A stretch of DNA of 63,151 nucleotides, counting the filler, from Kipferlia bialata (lineage: Eukaryota): assembly GCA_003568945.1 (NCBI GenBank). It is 4 parts of 4 records of this genome, joined end to end, with 100 filler letters (N's around TTAATTAATTAA, not from the genome) between each part and the next. Parts side by side here need not be neighbours in the genome. Positions count along the whole stretch, not along the records: positions 1 to 15,725 come from BDIP01000675.1; 3 more parts are not named here. The stretch is one strand, 5' to 3'. Positions 54 through 22,500 of the stretch are shown here, piece after piece (positions within the stretch are counted from its first letter, which is position 1; each line of letters begins with the position of its first letter). Under the pieces are notes generated by a model that saw only the letters and a list, made by a program, of their open reading frames with translations, ran no database searches and was not told the DNA's origin. Made by a program: the position numbers and the translations under genes.

Positions 54-2456
54 TCTCCTCAGGCGGTGGAGACGTGTTGTGGAGTCCACCCCCTATGACA
101 CCCCAGAGAGTGTGGGCCCCACCCTGGCCACCCCCTCCTCTGTTTACACTGTCATCAATACAGTCAGACAGGCACCAGCAGTGGCACTGCCAGCCCCTGC
201 CTCCCCTCTGCTGCTGGGGGAGTCCATTCCCACATCCCTCACAAAGTGGCACTCACAGGTACGCTATGGCATTGGTATCTGAAGCATTCTGTATATTCCA
301 GTGTCTATTTGTAACCCCCTCCCCACCCCCAGGTCCTGACCCTGTGTTTCTCCATGCTGAGCCCCTTCTCTGAGGTCAACGCCTCCTCTGCCACCCCTGT
401 CTCCCTATGCTCCGTACCCGACACCCCCCCTTCATCTCTGGCCACAGACACCCCACCCCACACCTCCACCATCAACAGCCATCTGGACGTGCTGGGCAAG
501 AGGCTGTTCAGACTGACCCAGAAGCAGGTTCGGATACTCACACTGGTGCTGATAACGTATGATACATGTATATATGATACTCTCTCTATAGATATGTGCT
601 TGGTGTTCAGACTGACCCAGAAGCAGTGGGGATACAATGTGTGTGAAGTATACTCCATGCGTATATGTGAACCTCTTCCATTTCTCTACCCCTAGATCAT
701 GGCCAAGTGCGTCACCCTGGCCCTCTCTGTCTCTGACACCGATGCCGAGTCTCCCACCAACCCCTGCCTGTCCTTTGTCAATACCCAGCTGGCACCGGAT
801 AGGGTACTGGGCCTAGTGGACACCCTGCTCAAGCAGAGACAGGAGAGTGGCACTGAGACACCGGCCAAGGGGGACACACCCATGTCAAGTAATGCAGAGG
901 GAGAGGGGGCTACTTCCAAGAGTATAGTGGGCCACCCCAGCCTGTCTGTTGCAGTGCAGGATGCCCTGGCTGTCAAGGGACCACTATCCCCTGCCCTCAC
1001 TGCATCTCTCATCAGTGGGATGGAGGGTGCCAATGCCGATGGTGCCCCTAAAAACCCTACCCTTAGCCATGTACTGGCAGACAGGATCATATGTGCCAAG
1101 GCCCGTATCCTGCTCACTGGCCTGTCTGACGCTGCCACGAGGCTCAAGGTACTTGGTGCTTGGTTATGTGTATATATACCTCTACAATGCACATACATAC
1201 TGACCTTCCCCCCCTCCGCTATCTCCCCCCACCCCCAGCGTGTACTATCCACCTACCAGGCCAAGGTGGTCCAGGCCAGGAGGGATGCACTGAAGGCAAA
1301 GGGGGAGGGGGAGGGAGAGGGTGACAAGGATGGTGACACTCTACCCCAGAAGGCAGAGGATGGCCCCACTGTCCTAGACATGTGCCGACCCTTGCTTGAT
1401 AGGATGGCAGAGGCAGAGGCTGCCCTAGGAGGTATCTTGGGTGTGGGGGAGAAGGAGAGGGAGACAGACCGAGACCTTGCTGGGTGTGTGCTGTCTCTCT
1501 CCTGTGACAGTGCTGTGTGTGACAAGGACAGGGCTCTGTGCGGAGGGGTGGAGAGAGACACCCCGGGTGCCCTGCCCTCTGTACCCAAGGCACCCAAGGC
1601 CAAGAGGCAGGCCAGACGCTCCGCTGCACCCTCTTCCTCGGCCTCAGGGGCCTCTCTCACTGGTATGCTCACTGTGCCTGAGTTACAGGCCGAGGAGGCC
1701 AAGGCCCTGGAGCTCTACCAGGACACGGGAGGGATGGCTGCCCCTCTATATGGTGTGCTATTTGCTAGACAGAGGCTGTCTGTGACTAGGTTTGTGGACA
1801 CCATGATCACAGCCGACCCCAAGCATCCCCCCAAGACACTGCCAGAGGGTGGGAGCCGCATGGTGACTGCTGATGCCATTCTGTTCAAGGAGAGCATGGG
1901 GTGGGAGGCACCAGAGGATGAGGGGAAGGGGGAGGAGATGAGTGACAGCATCAGTGAGATCAGTGGCCCAGAGCCAGAGCCTGAGATGGAGGCAGAGGCT
2001 GAGGTCACCAAGGGATGTGTCGATGCTGAGGAGGCCCAGCCCCCCACTGAGGCTGTCCCTGATACTGATGATAGTACCAAGGGTGACACTGTCATGACTG
2101 TTGATGCCCCATCCCTGGTGGACCCCACTCTGTCTGCCCCTGACAGTGTATGCATCTCCCCCATGGCTGAGCCTCCTGTGTCTGCCCCTGTCGAAGAGGA
2201 GAAGATGGGGGAGGAGTCTCCCATATCTGAGCCAGAGGCCCCTCCCTTAGCCACTGACAGTGTCAAGGCAGAGACCGAGGCCTCAGATGCCCCTCTCCCC
2301 ACTGAGACTGCCCCTTCCACTGGAGATGGCCCTACCCCTGACTCCCCCTTCATGCCTAGTCCTAGTGATGAGTCTAAGGCACTCTGCGACGACCCCTCCA
2401 GCCCATCTGATGAGTCCAAGGCACTCGATGAGGTGCATATGGGTGGGCAGATGTAG
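54..2456 (+). CDS. Hypothetical protein, 5'-partial, spliced (exons ~54-258, 333-527, 696-1148, 1239-2456), with an acidic low-complexity C-terminus
   Basis: GT..AG introns join ORFs 79-282, 354-695 and 699-2456 in one frame (..KWHSQ|VLTLCFSM..QKQ|IMAK..RLK|RVLS..). TAG at 2454-2456. No family motif recognised. Confidence 0.75.
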
Positions 2457-2704
2457 GCATAGGTGGCTTGTAGGCCTAATAGACTCAGTGTGGGGATCTA
2501 GCGAGTAACATTTAGTTGTTATTCTTTAACATCATTTATTGCTAAAATAGGCCTAGAATCCATACACCAGATAAGTTTTAAGTTTAAGTTTAAGGAATCC
2601 ATACACCTGGCATTCATCACCGGTGCATCTTTCCACCTCTCGGACGTCACTGAAGACCATTTACCTCGCGTATTAAACACTCTGGCACCACACCCCGTGT
2701 CGCC

Positions 2705-3375
2705 ATGTCCGACGGGTACTCCTCCGAGGAGCAGTGCCCTCCCGAGGTTGTGTTTGAGTATGCAGACGCTCCACCTGTGAGTGAGGAGGAGGCCTACCGC
2801 AAGTACAAGTGAGTGCCACCCTTACTCTATCCCCACATGCGTTATCACTGCTCTTATTGTTGTTTTGTGGCTGGTGGTATCGGTGTATATGTGCAGGGGG
2901 GCGCAGGGTGCGATGTGTGCTTTGCCACCACCCTACTCTATGTGTGACTGACCCCAGGCTCTTCCGCATCCTGGTCCTGGTGTACTCTGGGGCTGTCTGG
3001 CTCGATGGATATTGTATCAACCTCGTCTTCAGCACCCTGGAGATGCCGGGAATGGGATACGGACCCCACTTCACAGCCTTTGTACGTGGAATTCTGCATC
3101 TGTGTTACATATCGTTCATCCGTTCTAGGTCTCACCCTGTACCCCCCCCCCCCCCCCCCCCTCCACCCACTAGTCACTTCACTACAGACCTCTCTCTCTC
3201 CACCCTATTCACGTATTCACAACAGGTATGTATGTTATGCTCACCCTCTCGTTCTCCTTCTTTCTCTCTCTCCTTCTCTCTCTCTCTCTATATATATATG
3301 TATATTTGCAATAATTATATATATGAACTAAATACCTCATCCCCAGCCCTTAGTCAAGTGTGTCATGCTGGGGAA

Positions 3376-3413
<38 letters not shown>

Positions 3414-4485
3414 CTCTCTCTCCCTCTCTATACCCCTTCTCACATCTAGCCCTTAGTCAAGTGTGTCATGCTGGGCAACAATGCAGACCAGGTGGCATTG
3501 CTACAGAGACATAAGGGACTGAGTACCAACAGGTACAGCATACACACACTTTCAATACACCTCTCTATCTCCCTATATAAGTATATATATATATTACCTT
3601 GTTGCAGAGACACAAGGGACTCAGTACCAACAGGTACAGTACTCCAGTACATTAGTATATACATCTCTAGTACCAACAGGTACAGTACTAGTAATCCCAG
3701 TACACCAGTATATACCTCTCTCTCTCTCTCTCTATATATATATGTATATGTATACATTACCGTGTTGCAGAGATACAAGGGACTAAGCACTAATAGGTAC
3801 AGTGCATGTTTGCCGATCTGCAATACTCCTGCTCTGTCTGCCTCTCTGTCTCTTTCTCCTTTGACATTTCTACATATATGAACTATTCTTCCCTGCGGCT
3901 TCGGCTCTTTCTGACGCAGCATCTCTCTTACCCCCTACCAAAGTCCATTGGATCTCTCTCTGTCTCTCTCCTTCTCCTCTATCATACCCAGTAATCCTCC
4001 TGATCTCTTTGAGACCTACACTAGATCTCTCCCCCCCTCTCTCTCTCCCTCTTCCTCCTTATGTAACTCAGCAATTCCCCTGATCTCTTTGAGACCTGAC
4101 TCTCTCTCTCTCTCTCTCTCTCTGTTTCTCTCTCTCCGTGTGTGTATGATATACATATCTTACCCAGTAACCCCCCCGATCTCTTTGAGACCTATGAGAG
4201 CACCATGGATATAGACCCACATGGACAAGTGAGATACTCAGTCTGGATCACAGGCACGTACACATAGACATGTATATATATATATATACATGTATACGTA
4301 TATGTAGTGTATTGTATACTCAGTGTGGATCACAGGTATGATCCATCTGTCTCCTACTGTGATAGACGGTGTCTATTCTGATGTGCAGTAGTCTTTACCT
4401 CTCTCCCCTCCCCCCCTCTCTCTCTGTCCCTCTCTATATATTTGAGCCTCACCTATTATCGAGGACTAGAGACACCCTCTCTCAT

Positions 4486-4518
<33 letters not shown>

Positions 4519-5155
4519 ATACTAGTGTTCTGATCCTCAGCCAGTGACGAGGACTATGACAGGCTGCGTCCCCTTAGCTACCCAGCCACAGATGTGTTCA
4601 TGATCCTATACTCCTTAGATAACCCGGTATGTATGATTTGTATATATGTGTATAGCACATAAATATATTTCTTCGGCCACAAATACACAAGTCTTGTTTT
4701 ATCGGTATTCTGTATGTTTCCCATAATCACCCGTATATACATATATATGTTTTACCTCTACTAGCCAAACAGGTAGAGACTCTCTCTCCTTCCCTCGTTT
4801 TGCCCCCCCCCCTCACCATTCTCCAACAACATATTGCTTTCTCTCTCTCTGATCCCAGGCCTCTCTGGATGAGATCACTCAGAGATGGTACCGGGAGGTG
4901 AGACACAGTATATATTATGTACACTGTGCTGTGTACTTGCATATATATACCTACTCTGTTTACTAGTGGAGTGATGACTAATGCCAGGTCCACTACCCGG
5001 GCACATCCATCTTGATGTCTCCCTCTCTCTCTCTCTCTCTTTCTCTCTCTAGAGTTGTAATGACATGTCCATCACCACTGTCCAGGCACCCCTATCCTGA
5101 TCTCTCTCTCTCTCTATATATNNNNNNNNNNNNNNNNNNNNNNNNNNNNTCCTGA

Positions 5156-5190
<35 letters not shown>

Positions 5191-6165
5191 TAGTGTTCAT
5201 ATATGTTGTTGTTGTAAAGAATAATTCAAGGTCCACCACCACTGCCCAGGCACCCCAGTTGTGATGGTGGGGGTGGGGGGGGAACTGAGGGGGGGGAACA
5301 GGTAGATGCAATATCACAAATACTTGTATGCAGCATATGCATATATATTTATTCTGTGTGTATTAATTACACCATGTATATGGGGGGTGGGGGCAGAGCT
5401 GAGGGGCGGGAACAGGTATATATACATGTATTCATACTATATATGCAGCATATATATATGTATAGTAATTATGCGCATATTCACTACACTGTATAATTGG
5501 TGGGGGCGGAACTGAGGGGGGAACAGGTATATGCAGTATTCTATTTCATTCTAGTCCGAGGGCAATCATTGCATGTGTGTATGGTAGTGATTGAATCTAT
5601 ATCTATGCGGAGGTTACTTACTGTGGCACCCTTGTCCCCGAGCGCAGGGTCTGGGACTAATATAACATAGTATTATAGTAATAGTATATTAGTATATGAT
5701 CACTAATACTAGCACCCTTGTCCCCGAGCGCAGGGTCTGGGACACCGCGCATGCCATAAACGCAAGACACTTCCTAGAGTGCTCCACAGCCACTGGGTCT
5801 GGTGTCAGTGAGGTGTTCAGGGGTGCAGTCAGAACGGGACTGGGACACGTCGAAGGTATGATAGTGTTATATATATATATGCAGAAGGTATGCAACAGAA
5901 AATATACTGCTGCTAAGAGTGCCACAGGTGTGTCAATCCTATCAGCCCTCCTCTCTCGTACCATATGTATGGGACATGTGGAATGTATGACAGTGCTCTG
6001 TACACATACAATATCCCAGATGCATATCCTGCATGTATTTGAGAGTATGTATTCTATATCATATGGCTGAAAGATCAGGGCTGGGACATGCAGAAGGTAT
6101 CGAAGAGTATAGAAGAGTATCTGCATTGTTGATTCTTTGCAGCTCAGAGGGCGCATGCTGTCTGA
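2705..6165 (+). CDS. Atypical Rho-family small GTPase-like protein with N-terminal extension (exons 2705-2808, 2958-3081, 3450-3532, 4168-4253, 4541-4626, 4859-4897, 5231-5301, 5713-5855, 6143-6165)
   Basis: Spliced translation contains [58 protein letters not shown] and [16 protein letters not shown], collinear with Rho/Rac/Cdc42. Exon phases are consistent if the intron at 4254 uses a GC donor. Confidence 0.85.
3340..6100 (+). repeat. Junction-copy arrays in introns of the Rho-like gene
   Basis: Copies of exon ends/starts with splice dinucleotides at ~3346, 3601, 3668, 3765, 3985, 4066, 4316, 4985, 5067, 5381, 5499, 5626 and 6079. Confidence 0.9.
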
Positions 6166-6771
6166 CAATACTCCTCCTTCTATGATGTTCTGATTCATGG
6201 CTGGTTCTCTTTACCACTCTTATGTTACTCCTATCCAGTGTGTGACTGTATATATCACTGATGGTATAATTGTGCTTGTTATCACTTTCGTACAACCACT
6301 AACCCAGCCCCAAATGACAATGCCTATTTTGAGTGGTGGTACCATGTTACTTGTGACATAACTAACTACCGTGTATACTAGTACTTAGCACACACTAACA
6401 CAGCCCCCAAGGACAACGATAACTGTCTAGCAATGTAGACAACACACCGGCCACTGAGGATACAGATTGTGATACCTCAGTCATTCAGCTACCTGTATTG
6501 TGGGTACCCTTCAGGTATATATATATTCAAATACTATATGCTGCGGTACACACACTTCACACCAGTCCCAATCTCCACATTGACAGACTTGCTATGTTCT
6601 ATTCACTGTATCTCTGTGTTTCCAACTGAAGGGGTGTCTGGGCGAGATACTTAGTGTGTGTCTACGTCTTCTATGTGGATGGGTCTTAATGGTTGGTACT
6701 TAGTATGACATTAATTTCACGATAATGCTCTATTCACTCTGCGTCTCCTACCATAGGGATGAGCGAGATGC

Positions 6772-8047
6772 TCAGTATGACATGAACGACACTGAGTGTA
6801 GCTGCATGGCCACCCCAGGCCTGGCCCCCATCTTAAGAGCAAACTCCTGGGCCCTTGTGATCAGGGCATCGTCTGAGAGGAGAGCAGAGACCTACTGTCA
6901 GAGTGTGTATATATGCATATCTCTGTATGTATATATATGTCTGTGGCCCTGGTCTGCAGGGCATCGTCTGCAAGGAGGGCAGAGATCTGAGGTCAGAGTG
7001 TGTATATATTCATATCTCTGTATATATATATATATGTCTGTGGCCCTGGTCTGCAGGGCATCGTCTGAGAGGAGGGCAGAGACCTGACATCAATAGGAGT
7101 GAGAGATAGTGTGTGTGTGTGAGAGAGAGAGATGACAAGGAGGGCAGAGACCTGATGTCAGAGTATTTATATGCATGGCTATGTATGTATATGTATATGG
7201 CCATGGTCTGTGTGGCATCTGAGAGGAGGGCAGATACGAATATATATCTTCATGGCTGCTTTCTACTATCAGTGTCAAGAAGGTCCCATACTAGAATAGA
7301 CAGCTCCCGTTACTCAATCAGTTAGTGCATGTTACTTAAATTGACTATGTGCAACATACCATGTTAAGAATGTCATACATATGCATCAACCTAGTGAAAC
7401 GCGGGGGGGGGGGGGAGTGATACCTGAGTGTCCTAGTCAGGATAGCATCTCTCGTACATAGTAGTAGTACCAACTGATAACTGTACACAAACTATCCTAC
7501 ACACCTTATCAGTGTCGTAGTGCTCGTGCTCGTCGTGCCTCTCATGGGGCAGTATCGACACCCAGTAGTAGGGGTAGTCTCCCTCGCCAGACTTCACCAC
7601 ATACACTCCCTCAGGTACCTCCTTAGAGGCCCAGAGGTCCTCCCACTCTGCATCGTGTAAGTAGCTGATCTCCTCCTGCTGCAGCCATTGGTTGACCTGC
7701 TATTAGATACTATAAGGCTATTAGAGACATTGGTTGACCTGATAGTAGATACTAGGGAGAGGGAGAGGGAGATGCAGCTGAAGCAGCATTGGTTGACCTG
7801 GTAGTAGAGAGAGAGATTGAGAGGAAGATAGCATAAGATTGTCATTGGTTGACCTGGTAGTAGAGACTAGGGAGAGGGGGGGGGGTTAGGACAGGAGAGA
7901 CATGTATAAAGATATGTATAAAGACATGTACCAGAGCCATGAACTCCATTAGTCTCTCTAATGGCGATATGTTCTTGTGGCAGTATGTGGTACCTTCTCC
8001 TCTGATGCCTCCCACCCGATGACCAGGAATCCACCGTAGTTGGGCAT
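6772..8047 (-). CDS. Hypothetical ~121-aa protein (exons 8047-7994, 7696-7505, 6891-6772)
   Basis: ATG at 8047, two phase-0 GT-AG introns, open frame MPNYGGFLVIGWEASEEK|VNQW..DTDK|VSALL..FMSY*. Acceptor echoes sit upstream of exons 2 and 3. Confidence 0.7.
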
Positions 8048-8434
8048 ATATATATGCTCTAAAGGAGAGACAGAGATACTACTGCATATCTTGCTCAAGT
8101 AAGGAGAACCCTTTTCGAACAAAAACATCCGATTCAGTCATCTCAGATGAGTTACCTTGACCCCAGCCCAGAGGAAGTATAATATGGATGACAAACAAAA
8201 TTGACATTATGACCAACACTGCCATTGTCTATTGGAGAACGGACCGGTGTTATGTTCATCTGACCTATATCACTTGAGTGATGGTCTACGTGTATGCTGT
8301 ATTTAGGTGTAGACCTAAATAGATAGCCTCTTGTCCTACACGTTTTCCCATACCTCGTAGCACTGTCAGGTAGAACTCTCTAACACACAAACCATATCAC
8401 ACCACACTACCAACAGAGTCTAAAACACATACAT

Positions 8435-9934
8435 ATGCCTGAGAGTCCGGTTACAACCCTCCGTGATGTGTTGTACAGTCTGAATCAGCCTATACAGTAC
8501 CCTGCGCCTCCACCAAGGGTACACTCTAGTCTAACAAAAGTACAGTACCGACTATCCCATCTATCCCTAGACAAAGCCATTCCTGTCACTACTCACACAC
8601 AGGGGGACGGAATGTGGGAGGAACCGAAACCTGATGAGAGACTTGCTGGCAGAATCCGCCGCGCCTATGAGATGAATTGGGACGATGATACCCTAGCGCC
8701 TGCTCCCAGGAGCCCCACTCTGCCACTCCTTACCATCCGACCCGGCACCCCTCTCTACAAGCACTTGGTCTCTGGTCTCCCAAGTGATCTGAGGAGACGG
8801 GTCAAGAGAATACAAACACGCGACCGGTTTACAAACCGAGGGCGAGTCAGTCCAAGACCTCGTCGCGACTATGCACCTCAGGTATACCCACTCTATCACG
8901 GCACACCAGAGGAGTGGAGGGGGAGAGAGATAGCACTACATGGGTTTGACAGGGAACTGGTGGTGAGAGGGCAGGGCATCTACGCGACTACCGATGTTAG
9001 GACAGCAATGAGATACGCTGGTTTTCTGACGGTGCTGAGGGGTCTTGACGTGCCAAGCCTCGTTAAGAAGCCGACTAAGGGTGTCTGCGTGTATGACAGA
9101 CCCTGCGATGTTCAGTGCTTGGCTGTCATAGAGTTTCAACCGGACTGCACTCCAATATCCTCCCCAGAGCCACCACTGCGCTACAGCAACACGTGCCATC
9201 CTATCCAGTCACCGCTTCAAGGCGAAGAGTCTCGCACCAACCAGCTGTTGAGGAGCACCTCACCTCCCTCTCTTGGTGAGGATAGGAGTGGTGCTATGGT
9301 GTGCCTCGCCCACCACCTCATATGGCAGTGTCGGTGTACAGTGTACGGTGGGTTTGTCAGAGACTGGGTGATAAGGGGAGAGAGGGCCAATGACCTCGAT
9401 GCTCTACTACCAAGAGTCCCCGGTCTCAGTGAACGGGGTAGAGACAGTGTTGTCAGGTCTCTCGTAGAATGTGCCCATGGAATTGGTCTTGAGTTTTGTG
9501 GATCTCGCCACCAGCCAAACAGCTATCGTGTCTCCTTCTATACATCCAGAGGAGGGTACATCAACGTGGAGCTGGTTGACCCCCACCTTCGCACCCCTCC
9601 TCCCCACGTTGACTCCTCTGCTGGTAATGTAGCAGTGAGCACTGCTGGAATGCACAGGAAGGTAGAGGGCAGGGGTGACCTGGTGCCTCTTGCTACCTGT
9701 CTAGAACACATCAGAGCCAAGCAGTTTGTGTGCTACCTGGACTTCAAGCACAGGGACAACAGGGGTGCCCTTCACAGCAGAGTGGTGCGAAAGTACCTGG
9801 ACCGCGGGTGGACGCTGCTGAATGAGTTGCCTCGTGATCAGATGGAGGAACTGTACAGCAGCCCTGACTACACGACGTGGGAGGAGAGAGGGCAGGTGGG
9901 ATCATTCTTGACACGTTACAACACAGTCAACTGA
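8435..9934 (+). CDS. Intronless 499-aa fusion of a PARP-like (H-Y type) ADP-ribosyltransferase domain and a CCA/poly(A)-polymerase-like nucleotidyltransferase domain
   Basis: ART motifs LYHGT..I..HGF..GQGIYAT..A.RY..VYD..LAVIEF. NTase motifs VYGGFVRDW..NDLD, NVELVD, VDSSAGNV. Uninterrupted ORF. Confidence 0.75.
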   Translation: MPESPVTTLRDVLYSLNQPIQYPAPPPRVHSSLTKVQYRLSHLSLDKAIPVTTHTQGDGMWEEPKPDERLAGRIRRAYEMNWDDDTLAPAPRSPTLPLLTIRPGTPLYKHLVSGLPSDLRRRVKRIQTRDRFTNRGRVSPRPRRDYAPQVYPLYHGTPEEWRGREIALHGFDRELVVRGQGIYATTDVRTAMRYAGFLTVLRGLDVPSLVKKPTKGVCVYDRPCDVQCLAVIEFQPDCTPISSPEPPLRYSNTCHPIQSPLQGEESRTNQLLRSTSPPSLGEDRSGAMVCLAHHLIWQCRCTVYGGFVRDWVIRGERANDLDALLPRVPGLSERGRDSVVRSLVECAHGIGLEFCGSRHQPNSYRVSFYTSRGGYINVELVDPHLRTPPPHVDSSAGNVAVSTAGMHRKVEGRGDLVPLATCLEHIRAKQFVCYLDFKHRDNRGALHSRVVRKYLDRGWTLLNELPRDQMEELYSSPDYTTWEERGQVGSFLTRYNTVN

Positions 9935-10239: not shown

Positions 10240-13200
10240 CTACAGCTTGTGCCCCATCCCCTCCAACCCCTTCCTGACCCTCTTGGGTAGTGCCTCACTA
10301 GCAGATGGGTCTAGGGATGCATACCCACGGGAGAGCAGATAGGCATTGTAGCTGGTGGGTACATACTCAAGCAGCGTGTCAATTGCTTCACACACACCAG
10401 TCTCGGGGGTGTTCCCCCTGGCTGATACAGTCGGTGTATCATACAGCACTGCAGAGGTGTTGAGGGATGGGTTACCTCCCTCCACCCCGCATAGCAATGC
10501 GCTAAAGGTCATGTCCTCCCCCACCCCCTTGAACAGCCTGTCCAGCACCTCAGGGTCGGTGACACTGACCCCAGCCAGGGTGCATCTAACAGCCCTAGGG
10601 GGGTGTCGGAAGTAGCATAACGGGGGGCATCGGTAGAGATAGGAGGGTGGAATGGAGTGGACATGACCACTGTACAGTGACAACACAGATACGTGGCTGG
10701 GAGGGGTCGATTCTGCACTGTTTGCACTGTCTGTACTAGTATCTCCTGGCACCTTCCCAACCCTTGTGACAATACCACGTACCAATCTGTCTCGTGTCCC
10801 CTCACCCTCGCCAACCCTCTCTCTCAAGCACACAAACTCTCTCTCCCTCAAAGGCTCAGGGGGAGTGCTATAGCTACCAACTAAGGCATCGCTCTCAAGC
10901 ATACTCTCCTGCCTCACACTCTCCTCCTCATCCATCTCTCTCTCCAACACAAACACACACCCGTCAGCCTTGGACCCCTTGGGCGGTGTCTCCACACGCA
11001 CCTTACCCCTGATAGAGACAGGTGTGGTACCACATCCCAGGCACAGGTGCAGGAGAGAGGGTATGATGGCAGAGAGGGAGTGGATGCCGACCCTCAGCTG
11101 GGCAGCCCTCTGTGCTGCCTGAACATACACCCCTCCCATACCCTCAGGCACTCTATGGGACACAAGGGAGGCTAGGCCTACTGCTAGGAGGCACCTTCCA
11201 AGGTCAAGGGAGGTGTCCGGGGAGAAGGGGGTGTTGGAGGAGGTGGTAGAAGGAGAGGGGGATGGAAGGTGGACAGGCCGTGTGGGGGTGAAGGAGAGGG
11301 ATGCCAGAACACCTCCACCCCTGTCGAAGGAATGGAACCTGGCCTTGCAGACCTGGGTTAGAGACAAAGTATACTCACACACATACATGCTGTATCTATA
11401 TGCAGTATATATAACCATATTATACCTGCTGCAGCACCAGGCCTCTGCTATACTCCATGGACTGGGCAGAGAGGGGGTCGTTGTCACTAGGGGGTCAGAG
11501 AGAGAGAGAGACACAGACACAGTCCCCCATACGGAAAGAGAGACATGATGACGCATACACATTGCAGGGAAGATACTCATAGGTACATACCGTGTATTGG
11601 GAGTCATGACCCCAGCCAGCGACAGAGACACCACTGTCTTGGTATCCAGACAGTAGAACCTCAGGCGGTGACCACTCACAACCTAGGGGGTGAGGTATAT
11701 ATATAGAAAGAGAGAAATAAAGAGAGCGTTGGATTAGTAACACAAATTCATTCAATGACACAATAATTGAAGCTTAATCATAGCATGTGAACAATAAAGA
11801 ATTACAGTATACTTGCCGTACCTGCACCACCACTCCCTCGACCTCCCTCCCCCTGTACCTCTCAACTAGCTGCTTGGCTGTGTCTACACTGGGGTGCACT
11901 GCCAGGTTGGTGATCCCGGGCTGGGGCCACTCGACAGTCCTGGGGGTAGGGGTATATATATATATAATAATATGTAAATAGAGGGTGATGGCAAAAGAAA
12001 GAGAGAGAGAGAGAGTATAGCACACAGTCACACTCCACCCTTCTAGCCTTAGCCCATATTATACAGCATATACTATACTTTGTATATATAGCTTCCCACC
12101 TTGCCTTGGCCAGGATGTGCTGAGGGGCATCCTTGTTACACCTGGGTGAGTACACTTGCATGGTTATCTTACAAGAAGTGAATGGGGATCATACTAACGA
12201 CATACCTCACGTAACCTCTTCCTGCCAGCACTGCAGCGAGGTCTGACCCATCTGGGGTATGGACAGAGGCACACACAGAGGTGCCAGTCTGGGCCTGGGG
12301 TGGGTATCACACATAGTACTTATGAATATACATGTGCATATACCCGGTAGGTACCGATCTATAACACGCTACGTGAAAGGGTAATAGACATATAATACAA
12401 ATAAATGAGACTATCTCTATACCTCTGCCTTATGCATCCGGCCAACGATGACAATATACATACATACATACATACAATCCGATCCCTGTATACCTCAGCG
12501 TTGTGGACCCTAACCACTCTGCCCATGATGAGACGGGACATGGCTACAAGGCCAGGGACAGCACCTTTGCATAAGATGTATAAGAGAGAAAGAGAGAGGA
12601 GTGGATACATAGAGAGAGAGGGCGAGACAGAAGCGACTGACCTGGCTCACTCTTGTCGAGGTGCTGCCTCCTGCCCAACTTCCTGGGGGGTGAGTCGGGG
12701 TAATAGATTACAGTGCTAGATGACTAGTATTGCTAGTGTGAACATATGGCCTAGTACACAACTACATACCTCGGTGTCACATGCTGCAGTGCCACTCTGA
12801 TCTCCCTAGACCCTTCTCCACCCACCCTGTCTGCACATAGAGTGGGGGGTAGGGGTAGAGGGAGAGCCACACCACCACAACCATCAGCCTCAGCCTCTCT
12901 AAGAGCAGGAGTATCCCCCTCTACTTCCCCTTCGGTGTCCGTCTCGCCCTCTGTCTGGGGCATGGGCCTTACAAACAGCACCCCTGTGTTGACAATCTCA
13001 GTCACTAGGGCATCGTAGGACGGGCGGCAGATGGAGTCTGAATGCAACTGCTATGAGATATCGAATATGAATATGTGTATATATATATACATGAGAGACA
13101 CACAGAGAGAGAGGGCATCGTAGGAGGGGCGGCAGATGGAGTCTGAGTGGAGCTGGGGTAAATACTGAGAGAGAGAGAGGGAGAGATGGTAGCAGGTGTA

Positions 13201-15081
13201 GAGTACAAACTACTGTATCCACTTGAACACCCACCATCTCCCCCTTGGCCTGCGCCTCTGCTAGTGCCCCCCTCAGCGTCTCTCCACTATCTGGCAACAG
13301 AGACCCACTCCAGGGGACATAGAGACCAAGACCGGCCCTTAGGGGTGAGCTTACAGTTCTTACACGATACGATATATCCTTACAGGAAGTGTAGTTACCT
13401 AAGTATGTGCTCTGCTATGTCTCTGCCTGCACTCGATGCAATCTGGCCCACAAGCACACCACCTGCATCTACCCCGCATACAGAGACAGACACATCACGC
13501 TGGAGTATACGGGACTCCTATCATGAGAGAGAGATAGAGAGAGAGAGAGACATCATCGAAGAGAGAAGGCGAAAGAGAGTGAAGCAATAGAGGGGAAGAG
13601 AGATAGCACGTACCACAAACCACTTGGCTGCTTCTGCATAGGCCTCAGCCTCTCTAGGGCCCTCCTCAGCCTTGCCTGTCCATCTCGGACACCTGCGAGT
13701 TAGCAGGGACAGAGAACCGCGAGATATGTAAATATATAGGAATATACATATAGACAGAGAACCGCGAGATATATACATACATATGCAATCGACTCATTAC
13801 CTTACTCCAGCAAGAACAAAAGGCACCCTGATACCCCTCTTAGTCTCTCTCTCTCTCTCCGCCCCCTTGTGTGTGTGAGCACCTGGTGTGCCATCTGGGT
13901 ACAGTGTGATGTACATGTAGGAACCATCACGGACTGAAGTGAGGGGAGGGTAGGGAGAGAGCAGGAGAGAGAGAGAGAGTAGTAGAGAAATAGAGAGTGA
14001 GAGAGTAGTATCAGAACCTGACTCCACCACTGCAGGCTGCCAAATCAGACAGTGTATCACACATACACACACACATATAACTATGTATTTTATAGTATAA
14101 GGTATTCATATACACCCACCTGACTCCACCACTGCAGGCACTGCCCCCCGTGCAGTTAGCTTAGACAGCAAGGGACCTGTGTCCTTGGGACCAGCTGACA
14201 CGGGGTGGGCACCTGAGGGTGGGGGCATTCTGTGATGGACTCTTCTCTATATACACCATACCTGGATGGTGCCCTGCCCGGGTAGCAGGTGTCCAGACGC
14301 CCTTGCCAGATGCCTTGGCGGCCTGGGGGTTATGTACAGTTTGATCCATAGTATAGTACATATACTGGATTAGCTAATCCATTGCCATATAGACAATCTC
14401 CTTCTACACATGCACACACGTACCGCCTCTGCTGCCTCCAGTCTCTGGTAGAATGCAGTGCGGGGCTCCTCGGGGTACAGGCCCCTGGGGGTGAGAGATA
14501 CGCTATCCAACACTAACACGTACATATATAGTATAACTATACAAGAGCAATATGAAAAGGATCCTCGGGGTACAGGCCCCTGGGGGTGAGAGACACATAC
14601 TATACAGAGTATAACATAGACACTTTGTACACTTGGTATGTGATCCATTGTGAACACTGGTGTATGATGAACTCACTGGTGTTATACCCATACCTGAGTC
14701 TAGCGTATCCACTCCGCAGCAAGGCCTCGGCCACACACAGGGGGGGCTGGGGGGTGAGAGAGAGGTATGCATAGTATATGTAATATAGATATATGTATAC
14801 AATGTATGCACGTACCTTGTGTTGCCGCTGGAGCTCCACCTTGGCATAGTCCCTAGGGGGTGAGGTAGGTGTAGGGATATATATATATATATATGAAGGC
14901 GGTGAGGGGGATAGGTAGGAGATATGTACTAGGGGATATACTTGTATGCATCTTCACTAATAGAGGTTGAGGGTATTCACATACATGTATCCTTACCTCC
15001 CTATGCTGTCCACACTGAAGAGATGTGTGTACACGACTCTTCTGCCCACACACAGTCTGCGCAGATAGTCCCTGGGGGTAA

Positions 15082-15725: not shown

Positions 15726-15825
15726 NNNNNNNNNNNNNNNNNNNNNNNNNNNNNNNNNNNNNNNNNNNNTTAATTAATTAANNNNNNNNNNNNNNNNNNN
15801 NNNNNNNNNNNNNNNNNNNNNNNNN
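15726..15825. other. Artificial scaffold linker (N44-TTAATTAATTAA-N44)
   Basis: Exactly 100 nt with a stop-in-all-frames core; identical to the two other linkers. Confidence 0.98.
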
Positions 15826-16501: not shown

Positions 16502-19500
16502 ATGCACTGTGGCAGAGGGTGAGATGATACTATATACTATTTACTATATACTATATACTATATATGTATTGTGTATATAGGTGTATATGTGTATCCGAGG
16601 ATGCACTCTGGTCAGAGGGTGAGATACTACACATATATGTATTGTGTATATGTAGGTTGTATTATTGTTAAGGTGTAAAGGTGTAAAGGTTTTTACATTG
16701 TTGTGTATACACTGTCCATGGTGACAAGGTATGTGATGTGAACCCATATCTATACCCCCCCCCCCCCCCCCCCTCCCACCCCTCTATACCAGAAGATGTA
16801 CTCTATTCATTCTGTATACCTTCTGTTCATATTACATGTTCATGCCTAATACCAGCTCTGACCGGTCTGTCCTCCAGTACATATCAGCACAGGCACTCAG
16901 CACTGCACTGCTGCCAGTGACTAAGGTACATAGTATGTGTAGTATATATATTCTAATTGTGACCTAGGGGTTGATACAATACAACTAGATATACTTATAA
17001 TGTAAATCTCTATCACCATATATGTGTGTATGTATGTGTATATATGTATATATACAATATGTATGTAAACCTGCCCCCTCACCCCAGTACCGGCGACATG
17101 CTCCCCAGTCCATCAGTCCCCCAGTGCTACTAGGATACACATTCCTATCCAGTTGTGTTGTGTGTGTACTGCTGCATACCCATGAGATACCCAATGCTGC
17201 AAAGGGGTCTAGGGTTGCTAACAAAGGGTCTAGCAAGGATAGGAGAGAGGCAGAGAGGGGTGTGCAGTGTCTGAGGGCAGTTATGATGCAGGTGGAGAGA
17301 GAGGGGGAGAGAGAGAGTGGGTCTCCACCTGAGGTGCTCCATAGCATAGTGATAGCTGGAGAGGGAGAGGGAGAGAGAGAGGGAGATAGGACTGCGAGTG
17401 TGGCCTTCTGTCCTGACACCCACACTCTCTGTATAGCATATGCCTCTGGACTCCATCTGCACAGAGTGTCGATATCAACAGAGAGAGAGAGAGAGGGTGT
17501 GGCTACACAAGAGTGTATCGTCACCTCTACCCCCCTCCCTCTTCCCTTCCCCCATGATGTACTAGCCTTCACTGTTGGCAGTGTACATGTACTGAAGGGG
17601 GCAGAGGGAGAGAGAGCGATATGGAGACTGACACTGATGTTGGTACCTGAGAGTGTGGAGTCTCTTCGGTTTCTCTACTCTCTCTCTCTGTCTCTTCCAT
17701 CTGAGGATCAGTGGGGAGAGAGAGAGGATGGTGATGCAGAGGGGGAGAGAGGGATTGTCTGTGTTGACAGGACCAGTATCGTACCTCTCTGTCTGAGGGG
17801 AGAGTCAGAGGATGCCCCCCCTCCCTCCTCTCTCTCTCTACAGTCTGACAGTGGCCTACTCATTGTCTCCAGTGGGGTCTATGCCACTATTCACGGTGTA
17901 ACCTATGCTTCCCCTGCGGCACCCTCTCTGACTTCTCTCTCTCTACCTACTGGGGAGACTGAGAGTGTGGTGGGTAACATGCATGTAGGAGATGCATTTC
18001 CTGCTCTGCTTCAGCTGGGAGGGGCCTCTGTTACACCACCCCCTTCCCCTACACCCCCAAAGCGCTCAAATACAGGTATGGCATAATATGTAGTTGTTTT
18101 GCATTCCTATATACTAAGTACCCTATCACTGTCATCGCATTATGTCTGACTCACCATATATCTGGCAAGTCCAACCTAATGGACATCAATTCGATAGGAT
18201 ATGTAAATTTTATGATTGTTACTATCATCTATCCCCTAGACTTACGAGAGATGCATAGTATAGGTAATATATTTATGTATATACATATATATATGATCTG
18301 CATTTCTAACCCCAGGCACCATCCGCCGCATGATGAGTGACAGAGAGGGTCAGATGGGTAGGATAGGGGGTATGCTGGCATCCATAGGAGAGACATCACC
18401 ATGTGCCATACCAGCCGATGTCCCCCCCTGTGCCCCAACTCTACCGCTGGCTCCTTGTTACAAGGCATATGGGTTCATCCCCCAGTCCCTAGCCACCCCC
18501 CTCAAGACCTCTCTCCCCCTTGGCGTGTGTGATACCCCTCCCCCTGTCTCAGTGGTGGAGGCATGGGTGGGCTCTCTCTCTCTCTCCCTCAGAGTCCACT
18601 CTCTGCTGCCTTCCACTAGTCCCAGTGGGTCGGGTCCGTCCCACTCTCAGTGCCTCCACGGGCATACTATGAGAGCAGATCTCGATCTTTCCAGTGTGAT
18701 AAGTGATACATCCATGTGTGTGCATAGTATCAGGGTGGAGGCTGTGGGTGTGAAGCATGAGGCGGCTAGGAAGCAGTTCTCCGCTGGGGCTGCCAACTGG
18801 GTACATACCAGTGACAGCAGTAGTGACAGTAGTGACCTAGACTCTGATAGTGACTCTGACTCGGAGAAGAGAGAGAGGGAGAGGCAGAGGGAGATTGAAG
18901 AGGGGAAGCTGTTACGGGAGCAGTCTCGGTCAATCGTGGTGACTCGTGACACCCGGAAACTGGCACTTAGACACAGTGTCAAGGAGACAGAGAGAGAGAG
19001 AGTGGTGGTGCCTGGTGTGCGCCTTCCCTCCCTCGGAGGTGATGTCTGTCTAGTGAGTATGGACCCTGACTCTGAGTGTGTGTATAGGATACATATGGTA
19101 CTGGGTGCTGATGGGGAGGAGGGTGTCTCTCCCAGACATATGTGCATATCAGTGGACGTTGCCTTAGCTACTCTGTCGGTTATGTCCCTGCCTCCTACCC
19201 TGGCATCTAGTGTAACTCTGGCTCCCTTGCCCTCTGTTGCCACTGTCTCTCTGGTACATCCAATCAGTGTAGAGAGAGAGAGGGAGGCTGAGGTCACACT
19301 AGGACAGAGGGCACTGCCTGGATACCTAGTCACACTCGGCTCCTCAGTCAGCACTCCCTCATCCCCTGCTGCCGCGTATCTAGACATATGTACTACTTGT
19401 GAGAAGGGGTCTCCGCTCTCAGTACCTAGGAGGTTGCTGCTATCCACCCTTAAGGCAGGTAGTAGGGGTGAGGGGTCTAGAGACAGGGATAGGGATGTTC

Positions 19501-22500
19501 TCTCCCCTGACAGCATAGTCGGCTGGGAGGTTGTGTCAGTTGAGGCAGCCAATCCCACCATGCCGAGAAGGACCTCTCTCTCGCAGTCCTTCTCTCTTTC
19601 TGCGACATCCATTGGATCTCCTACCCGGTCACCACTCTCCGCCCCCTCTACCCAGTCCCTCGTGGTCTCTGTCCTGGTGTACAAGAGAGATGGGTCTGCC
19701 TTGCTTCTCAGCAATGCCAAGAAGAGTGCGGCTAGGAGGGGGTCCAGGGCAGAGCCGAGGGGTCTCTTCCCTCTGTCCTCGTCGGGGTCTTCTGATACCC
19801 TCTTCCTGGTTGACACACGAAGGTGTTTTGACAGGCACGACACACTGGGGTTGGGTGGATGTCTCTATCTCTCTGCCTCTCGGTCGATGCACACCACCAC
19901 TGTGTTCCGCAGTGGCAGTGTGGTATCACCTAGCAAGCATACGTGTGCTGGAGGGGCGTCTCCCCTTGGGGTTGTTGCGTCCTCTATCCTGTCAGCCGAT
20001 GGGAGGCATCTCCTGCTGAGACGCCTCTCCGTCTCTGAGAAGAGTGGGTCTCTGTCACTCACTGTATACCCTACCGCTAGGGTCTCTCTTTCTGCATCTA
20101 GCATTGCAGTCAACCATGGAAGTAGTATGGAGGTGTCTACACCGGCGACAGAGAACACCCCTCTCTACCGCATCAGACAGATTCTACCAGACACCTCAAC
20201 TGGTGGAGTGTATATCCTAGTCAACCAGGCGGTGTTCCGATCAGGTATATCATCCCTCTCTCTCAGTATATATAATGATTAGACATCATTGTATATCTCA
20301 AATATTTGGTCCAGCACTGCCCTCTTGCTCACTTCAGGTCCTTCTGGCCTGACTGGTACCACATCGAGTATTGAGTGCGTACATGAGGTAATGTAATTGT
20401 CAATATCTTCTTTCTCTCTTGTTATGCTATGTATAAGCTATGTCAGTATGTCCTTATATTCAGGTTGACTGTCTCCTGGCCACATGCCTCCACCCTGATG
20501 GGAGACTTCTCTCCTTGGTACTCCCTGACAAGAGAGAGTCCAAGTCTACCAAGACAGATAGTGAGGGTGATGTTCTGCTGTGCGTTGGAGATCTGCGTGA
20601 TGCAGTTACTGTCAACGTCACGTCTGCATTACCCAGTGAGGTTGCCAATACTCTTGTCAAGGCCCTTAGAGAGGGTAGTGAGTGTGTATCTATGAGGGCA
20701 GCTAATGCAGGTGTTGATGTAGTGACACAGACTGCTGGAGTACTGCATGTATCCATACCTACTCGCTCCCCAGCAGTGTCTGTGGGCGCATTGGTATCTG
20801 CATACAGGACGACAGATGATCCATCTGGTACACCTTCCGCTGCTCAGTCTGTGACAAGACATGACCTGAGTGTTCAGGAGGAGCTATTGCCCACTCTTGA
20901 GGACAGGTATGAATATATAGTGACTATATATTGATATATGAACTGTGTATATGCTTATCCCCCAGGTACTACCCTGCTCTATCTACGGCTGTCGACAGTA
21001 TGCAGAGAGATAGAGACACCGAGTCCATACGGCTGATGGAAGGTGACCATCTAGACAAGAACAGGGCAGATGGCACCCGTCTACTGTACAAGGACTCTGT
21101 CTTGTGGGATAGCCTTGGTGTGGCAGGGAGGATCCTGGGTCTATCTACTTCAGATAACACCACAGTTGTATCCACTGGTACTGGTGGTAAGGAGGCTGAG
21201 CCCCTCCACTTTACTCTCAACCCATCTCTGTCCGTATGGTTCCAGACCTACCGCTCTCTGAGTATGTCAATGGGTGGTGACATGACACCCCTACACCCCT
21301 GGGGCACACTTCCAATGATACTCAGACGGGCTGTGATGGCATATGCCTCCCTGCACCCACCTCTCCCCTCCCCGGCACTGTCGTCTAAGAAGAGCACTGT
21401 ACCCGTGGTGTGTGCTGATTCCTGTTCAGTCAGGCACAGTGTCAGTGTGGGCAATGCACTGTTAGCCTACATCCGCACCCTGCCCATTGCTGTGGACCCA
21501 GCGCTCCACCCAACCTTGCATACCTCCTATGAGGCACCATCCCTAGCTGCATTGGGGCAGCCTCTCTCAAGGTATGGGATTACCTATTTCATATGTATAT
21601 ATGTAAATTCATCATACTTCATGATATATGGGTGTGTTTTTGATACCAGGTTACTGCCTGAGGGTGCTGATGCCTTCACCGATGAGCTCTCTCTTTCCCT
21701 GGGTCAGACAGGGGACGAGTTCCCTGCTAGTACACATGCCACCTTGAGGGGCAGGACTCCCAACGTGGCAACAGCCTCCCCAATGATGTCGCCATTCCAA
21801 GCAGGTGAGTTAAGAATTACATGTATAGTACACTTCTACTTATAGTGTATTAGTGTCTCTGTAGAGTCTAACCTCTCCAACCTCAGGTGCCCCTGGTGCT
21901 TCCCTCCCTCCCCCTGTCCCCCTCAGTCTGTTCCTCAGTCTGAGAATGGGACTCTGGCTACCAGCATCCATACTCAAGGTATATATTCAAATACATACAT
22001 GTGCACGTATACTCTCAGTGTACGTACATCTGATGCATATCATTCATGTATATATTTAGTAATATTTATGTATTGACTGACCCCAGGCATACACCCTGAG
22101 CGTGTGTTCCTATGAGTTCAGTGTCAGCAGAGACCCAGATGCTGTGTCGCCTTTCCTGCTACTGCTCGGTACGTATGAATGCTATTTCTATTATGGAAGA
22201 TTCTTGATGTTCGCTTACTCCAGGTGAGCAGCGCAAGCTCTCTGGGATGTACAGAACCAAGCAGAACGGCAAGATTGCAGATTTCCTCCTGAGAGACTTC
22301 TCAGTCGACAAGAACCTGGTGGCTGCAAGGTATCTCACATGTTTGTAACACCTTGTCCTAGCAGTGCCTCATACTTATTTGTGTGTCTATACATCCATAC
22401 AAGCCAGGGTTGTTATAGGAAATGGTATATTCTAACCTCAGTAAGAATGCCTTCACAGTCCTTGGGAGAGGAGACACCATGAGAGCAGTAGGTACAAGAT

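What the first reader, a model, noticed from the sequence alone, without database searches (positions are those of the whole stretch)
3450..4340. Echo copies differ from the real exon mostly at synonymous sites (Rho-like gene)
Seen: the exon end CTA CAG AGA CAT AAG GGA CTG AGT ACC AAC AG|GT has echoes TTG CAG AGA CAC AAG GGA CTC AGT ACC AAC (all silent) and TTG CAG AGA TAC AAG GGA CTA AGC ACT AAT (one H>Y, rest silent). The exon start AAC CCC CCC GAT..ACC TAT has an echo at ~3991 reading AAT CCT CCT GAT..ACC TAC (four silent, no replacement). Dead intronic copies should accumulate mainly replacement-type changes. Inference: echoes are fragments captured from diverged functional alleles or paralogs (e.g. 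out-of-register recombination anchored in microsatellites), or are still used and selected. Introns would then archive other alleles.
Basis: partly seen in the sequence, partly recalled or inferred. Interest (0 to 1): 0.9.

Follow-up and report, generated by a model that had tools for sequence, protein, structure and literature searches.

The report
Introns archiving other exon-end alleles
In this protist genome, introns hold short copies of the neighbouring exon ends that differ from the real exon mostly at silent positions, so the copies were likely taken from other working versions (alleles) of the same gene, leaving a record of past recombination inside a single genome.

Summary
Observation confirmed and extended. 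The Rho-like gene's echoes are real: independent DNA contigs hold exon and echo together at flank depth. The pattern recurs in other genes of the window: 82 echoes at 104 modelled splice junctions in ten genes of a likely Kipferlia genome.
Silent differences are 73 of 110 (strict trim) or 71 of 124 (lenient). Both nulls are rejected, also outside Rho, for transversions and echo against echo; pN/pS is 0.20.
Echoes do not look used now: 4 stops, no partner splice sites, and RNA contigs skip them where checked.
Best reading (0.6): young, dead copies of old functional alleles, likely made by homologue-templated break repair and silent because the outermost splice sites win. No second allele was seen as an exon, so the source is inferred. 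Paralogues (especially for Rho) and faster silent change in exons remain possible. Microsatellite anchoring is weak and divergence does not rise with distance.
Junction-spanning repeats are known (human F7 IVS7; this scan noted echoes in a sea-urchin gene). I did not find the allele-like signature in print.

The parts
3450..6439 (+). Rho/Ras-like GTPase gene, modelled exons 3450-3532, 4168-4253, 4541-4626, 4859-4897, 5231-5301, 5713-5855, 6404-6439; ends in a CaaX-like CLAM; 5' start not resolved
   Evidence: open spliced frame; weak Pfam Ras match E=0.016, below cut-off; Atlas nearest clusters Ras family, 0.94-0.95; RNA contigs on four exons
3345..3376 (+). acceptor echo of exon 3450 (1 silent difference)
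3498..3532 (+). real exon end with donor GT at 3533
3599..3639 (+). donor echo 1: 4 differences, all silent
   Evidence: in one DNA contig with the real exon end
3669..3685 (+). mini donor echo, identical; too short for the pooled set
3762..3802 (+). donor echo 2: 7 silent, H>Y, L>V at the free edge
   Evidence: DNA contig 3764-4020
3986..4019 (+). acceptor echo A of exon 4168: 4 silent differences
4066..4097 (+). acceptor echo B of exon 4168: 3 silent, P>S
4168..4253 (+). real exon, ending at a GC donor (4254-4255)
   Evidence: RNA contig covers 4165-4253 without differences and another starts at 4538; frame
4314..4337 (+). donor echo with canonical GT, 1 silent difference, skipped in the RNA contig
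5067..5101 (+). acceptor echo (AG lost): silent changes, and reads P-I-L where the exon reads P-V-V
5383..5532 (+). two donor echoes of exon 5231-5301; both read Ala where the exon has Gly, with private silent changes
5626..5657 (+). acceptor echo, exon part identical, AG lost
5970..6100 (+). two donor echoes of exon 5713-5855, skipped by the RNA contig that joins 5853 to 6402
31741..37612 (+). inositol-3-phosphate synthase (INO1), 15 modelled exons, 30 echoes; pS 0.084, pN 0.010
   Evidence: 55% identical over 460 aa to homologues
38292..43206 (-). thioesterase-like gene, 13 modelled exons, 21 echoes; pS 0.169, pN 0.033; one echo (39470-39398) carries an in-frame 21-nt insertion with mostly silent changes
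   Evidence: open 342-aa frame; weak Pfam thioesterase match, below cut-off
6772..7803 (-). convergent gene with acceptor echo arrays; an RNA contig joins 7503 to 6889 across four echoes
13047..14585 (-). Tudor-SN-like gene (name from recalled motifs) with 3 echoes; the one at 13155-13112 has 4 of 4 silent differences

Best explanation
The echoes are short tandem copies of splice junctions (about 28 nt of exon end plus intron edge) that lie dead inside the intron and were likely copied from another functional allele of the same gene. Shown: the copies are real, strictly polar (donor copies downstream, acceptor copies upstream, donor copies first), and most of their divergence from the exon arose under protein-coding constraint on both sides. 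Shown at three introns: spliced RNA uses the outermost sites. Inferred: a DNA break near a junction is repaired by one end invading the homologous chromosome, copying across the splice junction, dropping off in TA/TC-rich intron DNA and rejoining the other end by microhomology, so two allelic versions of the junction end up side by side. Later allelic gene conversion of the exon, or of the echo's exon part, would give the same signature and cannot be told apart here. Inferred: the half-junction copy is harmless because the first donor and last acceptor are chosen, and it then decays slowly (about 1-2% so far) while preserving about 9-11% older silent allelic divergence.
For: Silent share 73 of 110 or 70.8 of 124 against 29% and 43% nulls. 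In 300 simulations per null the share never exceeded 0.39 and 0.545. It holds for neighbour-base and per-gene nulls and per array, 27 of 36 arrays above 0.43, p=0.0016. Outside Rho: 53 of 85. Transversions: 27 of 50. Private differences: 29 of 47. Echo against echo: 33 silent to 19 replacement in 34 neighbour pairs. Replacements are conservative, mean BLOSUM 0.25 against -0.42, p=0.01. The three longer indels seen in echoes are 6, 6 and 21 nt. Where flanks align (33 of 79) the intron part differs by 18% but replacement sites by 2.1%. Splice dinucleotides are lost in 5 of 75 echoes, a decay matching pN 0.023. Polarity is 70 to 1 and donor copies precede acceptor copies in 8 of 8 introns. No mRNA-template signature. 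For the likely taxon, k-mer peaks suggest a diploid genome (PMC5874029, passage). Metamonads lack NHEJ and fornicates replaced Rad51A by two Dmc1 paralogues (PMC8516963, passages). Dmc1 stabilises mismatched triplets (PMC6719624, abstract).
Against: No echo variant was seen as an exonic allele: the DNA contigs show no other letters over 2400-8200 (contigs drop variants), and the one metagenome scan gave 25 short, distant matches and no conspecific locus. The excess is absent or not significant in the small group of other genes (9.7 of 33 lenient; 10 of 20 strict, p=0.16) and for acceptor echoes under lenient trimming (32.8 of 63, p=0.10). Some echoes look like plain decay (thioesterase exon 2: 0 of 4 silent; IleRS exon 2: 0 of 3). 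Rho echo 2 (7 silent in 11 codons; gene pS 0.27) is deep for an allele. 31 of 79 flanks do not align better than controls, and AT-rich flanks may mutate faster, so they are a poor clock. In 7 clearly related echo pairs even silent sites barely differ (1 of 162 sites against 20 of 155 in flanks), which needs refreshing by conversion or fast flanks. Microsatellites at free ends are only mildly enriched (39 of 82 against 35%, p=0.01). Silent changes lean G/C in exon to A/T in echo, 37 to 22. The repair pathway is untested.
Confidence: 0.6

Rival explanations
1. Echoes are ordinary same-chromosome tandem duplicates that decay neutrally, and the silent excess arises because silent sites of the working exon change faster than the echo does (mutation-rate difference or shifting codon preference).
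For: Differences found in all echoes of an array are 15 of 16 silent. 28 of 82 echoes are identical to the exon, against 18.8 expected by Poisson. Some echoes carry only replacements and stops.
Against: It needs exon silent sites to change 2.3-5 times faster than echo sites, while the intron DNA beside the echoes diverges fast. Echo-against-echo differences are also 63% silent. There is no distance trend. Equal-rate versions are rejected.
Confidence: 0.12
2. Echoes were captured from paralogous or homoeologous gene copies rather than alleles.
For: Rho belongs to a gene family and has the deepest echoes (pS 0.27). A copy under 85% alike would not have been laid. The genome could not be searched.
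Against: The same signature is in INO1 and the thioesterase-like gene. Echoes share their own intron's edge. No exon end has a credible distant copy in the window, 70 near hits against one 14-nt far hit. No second Rho copy at 85% or more appeared in the DNA run.
Confidence: 0.1
3. Echoes are kept free of harmful changes by second-order selection, because they frequently convert or replace the real exon end within one lineage.
For: Exon parts of related echoes are far better conserved than their flanks, and replacements are conservative.
Against: A conversion rate low enough to leave 14% silent divergence gives Ne x c of only 0.2-0.7 for theta 0.05-0.2. That purges only near-lethal changes and only partly (rough model). 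Yet 4 of 36 changed codons are stops, against about 5% expected.
Confidence: 0.1
4. Echoes are still translated in some transcripts (alternative ends or micro-exons) and are under direct selection.
For: 70 of 75 keep their splice dinucleotide. RNA contigs were shallow (depth about 5) and drop rare forms. One short unit at 44080-44099 has both an acceptor and a donor.
Against: Using an echo site is in frame in 28 of 75 cases (chance level) and in frame and stop-free in 8. A partner site at the free end is present in 0 of 44 donor and 2 of 38 acceptor echoes. There are 4 stop codons. RNA contigs use the outermost sites at three introns, even a GC donor ahead of a GT echo.
Confidence: 0.05
5. Echoes are an assembly artefact: the second haplotype written in tandem.
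For: The likely species is reported as diploid and assembled from short reads (PMC5874029, passages). Contigs break at microsatellites. Only the Rho region was checked against reads.
Against: 97% of 357 sampled 31-mers of 2560-6100 are in the DNA run. A separately assembled contig spans real exon end and echo with no difference at flank depth. The join of TA-repeat to mid-exon cannot come from a normal allele. Arrays hold up to five copies.
Confidence: 0.03

Closest known systems
Human F7 intron 7 (IVS7) 37-bp VNTR (PMC1557585, abstract seen)
   Same: Repeat whose first unit spans the exon-intron border; downstream copies of the donor stay silent; the most upstream donor is chosen by oriented scanning.
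   Different: A single donor-side minisatellite with identical pseudo-sites. Here 40 of 59 modelled introns carry copies on both donor and acceptor sides, and the copies differ from the exon with a coding signature.
Intron gain by tandem genomic duplication (Rogers model; ATP2A1, PMC3265369, passages seen)
   Same: Short intragenic tandem duplication involving splice signals, tolerated because splicing removes the extra copy.
   Different: There an exonic AGGT segment is duplicated and a new intron is born. Here existing junctions are copied into existing introns, which grow from about 100 to about 300 nt, and no new intron results.
Tandem exon duplication with mutually exclusive exons (recalled; one listing seen)
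   Same: Exon-like copies in introns with mainly silent differences.
   Different: Those are whole exons with both splice sites and are used. These are half-junctions, strictly polar (70 to 1), without partner sites and with stops.
One-sided invasion or aborted synthesis-dependent repair followed by end joining; unequal exchange between homologues (recalled, no paper read)
   Same: Would place a template-derived copy beside the original at a break.
   Different: Known from reporter and transposon-break experiments; I know of no report of it as a genome-wide source of intron growth or of an allele record.
Splice-junction echoes in a sea-urchin gene
   Same: Exon ends copied head to tail into neighbouring introns.

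Membership tests
Junction-spanning tandem duplication (F7 IVS7 type) | copy includes exon end plus splice site and lies in the adjacent intron | tested here: met
   82 echoes; polarity 70 to 1; dinucleotide kept in 70 of 75
Junction-spanning tandem duplication (F7 IVS7 type) | outermost splice site used, inner copies silent | tested here: met
   three introns in shallow RNA contigs; not checked elsewhere
Junction-spanning tandem duplication (F7 IVS7 type) | copies start identical and decay neutrally | tested here: not met
   pN/pS 0.20, CI 0.13-0.32, against 1.0 or 0.5; simulations
Junction-spanning tandem duplication (F7 IVS7 type) | intron part of each unit homologous to the real intron edge | tested here: inconclusive
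   33 of 79 flanks align better than controls, 31 do not
Mutually exclusive or cassette duplicated exons | copy has both acceptor and donor and an open frame | tested here: not met
   partner site 0 of 44 and 2 of 38; 8 of 75 in frame and stop-free; 4 stops
Intron gain by tandem duplication (Rogers model) | intron consists of duplicated exonic sequence around an AGGT site | tested here: not met
   introns keep a normal core, median 114 nt against 101 nt for echo-free introns
Inter-homologue capture (allelic unequal exchange or one-sided invasion) | copies differ from the exon as functional alleles do (silent much more than replacement) | tested here: met
Inter-homologue capture (allelic unequal exchange or one-sided invasion) | echo variants exist as exonic alleles in the homologue or other isolates | tested here: inconclusive
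   no other letters in contigs, which drop variants; no conspecific locus found
Inter-homologue capture (allelic unequal exchange or one-sided invasion) | dependence on a recombinase and break-repair pathway | not testable with these tools
   only gene-content passages from PMC8516963
mRNA-templated insertion | copy runs across an exon-exon junction | tested here: not met
   1 of 71, and that one matches the real intron end as well
Rho/Ras small GTPases (host gene) | Ras-family domain and C-terminal CaaX | tested here: inconclusive
   single exons only: Pfam PF00071 E=0.016, below cut-off; Atlas Ras clusters; CLAM stop; the P-loop region looks degenerate against the recalled Rho consensus

The most novel reading that the evidence does not exclude
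This fornicate, from a group that lacks NHEJ and Rad51A and repairs breaks with Dmc1-type recombinases, routinely mends breaks near splice junctions by copying from the diverged homologue. Its introns therefore grow as stacked archives of past alleles (about 10% silent divergence, with in-frame indels and amino-acid variants). [quoted passage not shown]
Probability: 0.35. Interest if true: 0.9.

Novelty: new variant of a known kind. Interest (0 to 1): 0.76.

Why it matters
If echoes are captured alleles, a single genome records thousands of other haplotypes and the exchange events that brought them in. That makes the open question of recombination and sex in free-living metamonads testable from existing reads. 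It would also be a new route of intron growth: echo number tracks intron length (Spearman 0.87) and stripped cores are of ordinary size. The arrays are natural splice-site competition experiments for a reduced spliceosome (87 of 174 proteins, no snRNA candidates found in K. bialata; PMC6679479, passages): the outermost site wins even when it is GC against GT. Practically, echoes will mislead gene prediction and read mapping.

Tried and rejected
No whole genome is held, so the test covers one window and paralogues were not searched genome-wide. No listed run is on record as RNA; X2 is a guess, although its contigs join at splice sites. RNA support exists only for 2400-8200; INO1 and thioesterase splice sites rest on open frames and homologues. 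One metagenome scan with thioesterase exon 1 gave 25 loci, all short matches to a conserved motif, none conspecific, not used. Protein searches: INO1 exon, best 83% identity among the 120 listed, no conspecific allele; ORF 48819-49889, no hit; the search of protein representatives for Rho paralogues was never run, the machine being busy. Distance trend rejected (15 for, 20 against, 18 ties). Correlation of flank divergence with silent divergence not significant (rho 0.17, p=0.12). CpG effect rejected (7 of 110). C>T bias acting on C-rich third positions is built into the nulls and does not explain the excess. mRNA templating, cassette use and frame preference rejected. Left out of the counts: the first four exons of the gene at 43390-45904 (frame unresolved), the long gene at 18000-30900 (not modelled; no junction echoes), most exons of the scaffold-4 genes, and echoes under 14 aligned exon bases. 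Genes were chosen because they showed echoes, not by their pattern of differences; the frame of the exon at 62193 is uncertain and counts against the excess. Literature searches that found no description of these echoes or of an allele-like signature: (open-licence library only; supplements not read). In the species' genome paper 'duplicat' has 0 hits and the 'repeat' passages shown do not concern introns.

Full report
Setting. The window is four scaffolds of about 15.7 kb joined by N-linkers. It is an intron-rich eukaryote with GT-AG introns, a branch-like motif next to the acceptor, and TA/TC repeats. The only homologue of the gene at 55741 is a Kipferlia bialata protein at 38% identity, and GC near 49% and intron richness fit that species' published figures (PMC5874029, passages). 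The taxon is therefore likely Kipferlia; this is inferred.

Observation. The finding lies in a Rho/Ras-like gene whose modelled exons give an open frame ending in CLAM (weak family support). All quoted echoes are as described. Echo 3599 has 4 silent differences; echo 3762 has 7 silent, H>Y and an edge L>V; acceptor echo 3992 has 4 silent. The gene has 12 echoes in the pooled set.

Are they real? 97% of 357 sampled 31-mers of 2560-6100 are in DNA run X1. Its separately assembled contigs 3438-3705 and 3764-4020 match without differences at depth 453 and 457, against 476, 491 and 469 for long flanking contigs; the first spans real exon end and echo. A join of TA-repeat to mid-exon cannot come from a normal second allele, so tandem misassembly is rejected here. 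No other letters were listed, but contigs drop variants, and equal depth does not show whether one or both homologues carry the array. Contigs of run X2 (RNA is a guess; depth about 5) end and start at modelled splice sites and skip echoes at three introns: 4253 to about 4541, 5853 to 6402, and 7503 to 6889 in the convergent gene. At the first, a GC donor is used although a GT echo lies 82 nt downstream.

Extent. I modelled ten genes or gene parts by coordinates; INO1 is 55% identical to homologues over 460 residues. A fixed aligner found 82 echoes at 104 junctions in 27,603 bp of own introns, against 14 hits in 1,162,570 bp of wrong-gene controls. 40 of 59 introns carry echoes (median 302 nt against 101 nt without); polarity is 70 to 1 over 48 exons; donor copies precede acceptor copies in 8 of 8 introns with both. 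Stripped of echoes, cores have a median of 114 nt. Genes were picked for having echoes. The long gene at 18000-30900 shows none and was not modelled; the first four exons of the gene at 43390-45904 were dropped for unresolved frame.

The silent excess. Two nulls were used, both conditioned on the observed base changes. A: dead echo, frozen exon, about 29% silent. With lenient trimming, which keeps alignment overshoot, 70.8 of 124 unique differences are silent (B expects 53.3, p=0.0005); Rho exons 1-2 give 11 of 13 (p=0.019) and non-Rho 51.8 of 100 (p=0.016). With strict trimming and parsimonious codon paths it is 73 of 110; non-Rho 53 of 85; transversions 27 of 50; private differences 29 of 47 (p=0.007); differences in all echoes of an array 15 of 16; pN/pS 0.20, bootstrap over 36 arrays 0.13-0.32. 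Simulation with the same trimming and codon scoring never exceeded 0.39 (A) or 0.545 (B) in 300 runs each. Neighbour-base and per-gene nulls, a per-array test (27 of 36 above 0.43) and CpG (7 of 110) change nothing. Neighbouring echoes differ from each other by 33 silent and 19 replacement changes. Against: the small group of other genes shows no significant excess (9.7 of 33; 10 of 20), nor do acceptor echoes under lenient trimming (32.8 of 63, p=0.10), and a few echoes are pure decay.

Young copies of old versions. Per echo site pS is 0.136 and pN 0.023, and splice dinucleotides are lost in 5 of 75 echoes, the same order as pN. Four of 36 changed codons are stops, while the others are conservative. 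A two-part model puts 66-83% of silent differences before the echo's death. Where flanks align (33 of 79) they differ by 18% while replacement sites differ by 2.1%. In 7 clearly related echo pairs, flanks differ at 20 of 155 non-repeat sites and exon parts at 1 of 162. AT-rich flanks may mutate faster, so this is supporting only. The three longer indels seen in echoes are 6, 6 and 21 nt. Echoes do not look used: in frame 28 of 75, in frame and stop-free 8, partner sites 0 of 44 and 2 of 38. There is no distance trend, no mRNA signature, and microsatellites at free ends are only mildly enriched (39 of 82 against 35%).

Mechanism (inferred). In one lineage only one copy is functional at a time, so both copies can have been under coding constraint together only on different chromosomes. 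The simplest route is break repair in which one end invades the homologue, copies across the junction and rejoins the other end; allelic conversion after a same-chromosome duplication gives the same result. Context fits but does not test this. K. bialata is reported as likely diploid from k-mer peaks (PMC5874029, passage). Metamonads lack NHEJ, fornicates lost Rad51A and keep two Dmc1 paralogues, and no sexual or parasexual process has been observed in the group (PMC8516963, passages). Dmc1 stabilises mismatched triplets (PMC6719624, abstract). Silence of inner sites matches the upstream-first scanning described for F7 IVS7 (PMC1557585, abstract); for acceptors a shortest-exon rule is my inference. 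The decisive link, an echo variant seen as an exonic allele, was not obtained.

Rivals. Faster silent change in exons would need a 2.3-5-fold rate: 0.12. Paralogue capture is plausible for Rho (pS 0.27) but less so for INO1, and could not be searched genome-wide: 0.10. Second-order selection through conversion is too weak by a rough model and sits badly with stops: 0.10. Current use 0.05; artefact 0.03.

Novelty. Junction-spanning repeats with silent pseudo-sites are known (F7 IVS7), as is intron gain by duplication (PMC3265369, passages), and this scan noted echoes in a sea-urchin gene (e1-7787398, unchecked). Searches found no account of echoes in Kipferlia or of an allele-like signature; the library is open-licence only and supplements were not read. 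One-sided invasion and mutually exclusive exons are cited from recall. Verdict: real, a new variant of a known kind, interest 0.76; best mechanism 0.6; boldest reading 0.35 at interest 0.9.

Noticed in passing
window 4254-4255 and 4336-4337: The spliced RNA uses a GC donor although an echo 82 nt downstream offers a canonical GT: the first site wins over the stronger one.
   Followed up: partly
window 2690-3230: A highly covered spliced RNA contig (1315 nt, depth 309) matches only 2650-2808 and 2958-3081 among the pieces shown, and a DNA contig ends at the poly-C run near 3143-3161. The scaffold may be mis-joined there, so the Rho gene's 5' end is uncertain.
   Followed up: no
window 15726-15825, 31550-31649, 47352-47451: N-run / TTAATTAATTAA / N-run linkers: the window is four unrelated scaffolds of about 15.7 kb.
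   Followed up: yes
window 18000-30900 against 31650-47351: Echo density is locus-dependent. The long gene with GC3 0.54-0.65 shows no junction echoes, while genes with GC3 0.75-0.81 on the microsatellite-rich scaffold (79 bp/kb against 7-49) have them at most introns. This may track expression or recombination.
   Followed up: partly
window 39470-39398 and about 39352-39319 (minus strand): Two echoes share a 21-nt in-frame segment absent from the real thioesterase exon; the longer has 7 silent of 9 differences and looks like an older or alternative allele with a 7-residue insertion.
   Followed up: partly
window 5067-5101 and 4989-5020: Both acceptor echoes read I-L where the exon reads V-V; I-L is closer to the recalled Rho consensus, so the echo may hold the older state.
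   Followed up: partly
window 35367-35801: INO1 donor array with a stepwise codon series CTT, CTT, TTG, ATG, ATG across the exon and four echoes while the other 25 exon bases are identical in all five.
   Followed up: partly
window 44080-44099: An 18-nt unit with both acceptor and donor that repeats the start of the next exon; possibly a real duplicated micro-exon in a low-complexity protein.
   Followed up: no
window 3450-3532: The Rho-like protein's P-loop region looks degenerate against the recalled consensus; it may be a pseudo-GTPase that keeps a CaaX end.
   Followed up: no
window 6757-6891: RNA of the minus-strand gene covers 6771-6889, just downstream of the Rho-like gene's stop at 6439; the two genes converge tightly.
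   Followed up: no
window 8600-9934: Intronless ORF of about 440 aa whose motifs recall an ADP-ribosyltransferase-like and a nucleotidyltransferase-like part (from memory, not searched).
   Followed up: no
window 39490-39684: Echo units with very short exon parts have themselves expanded into a 66-nt tandem array.
   Followed up: no
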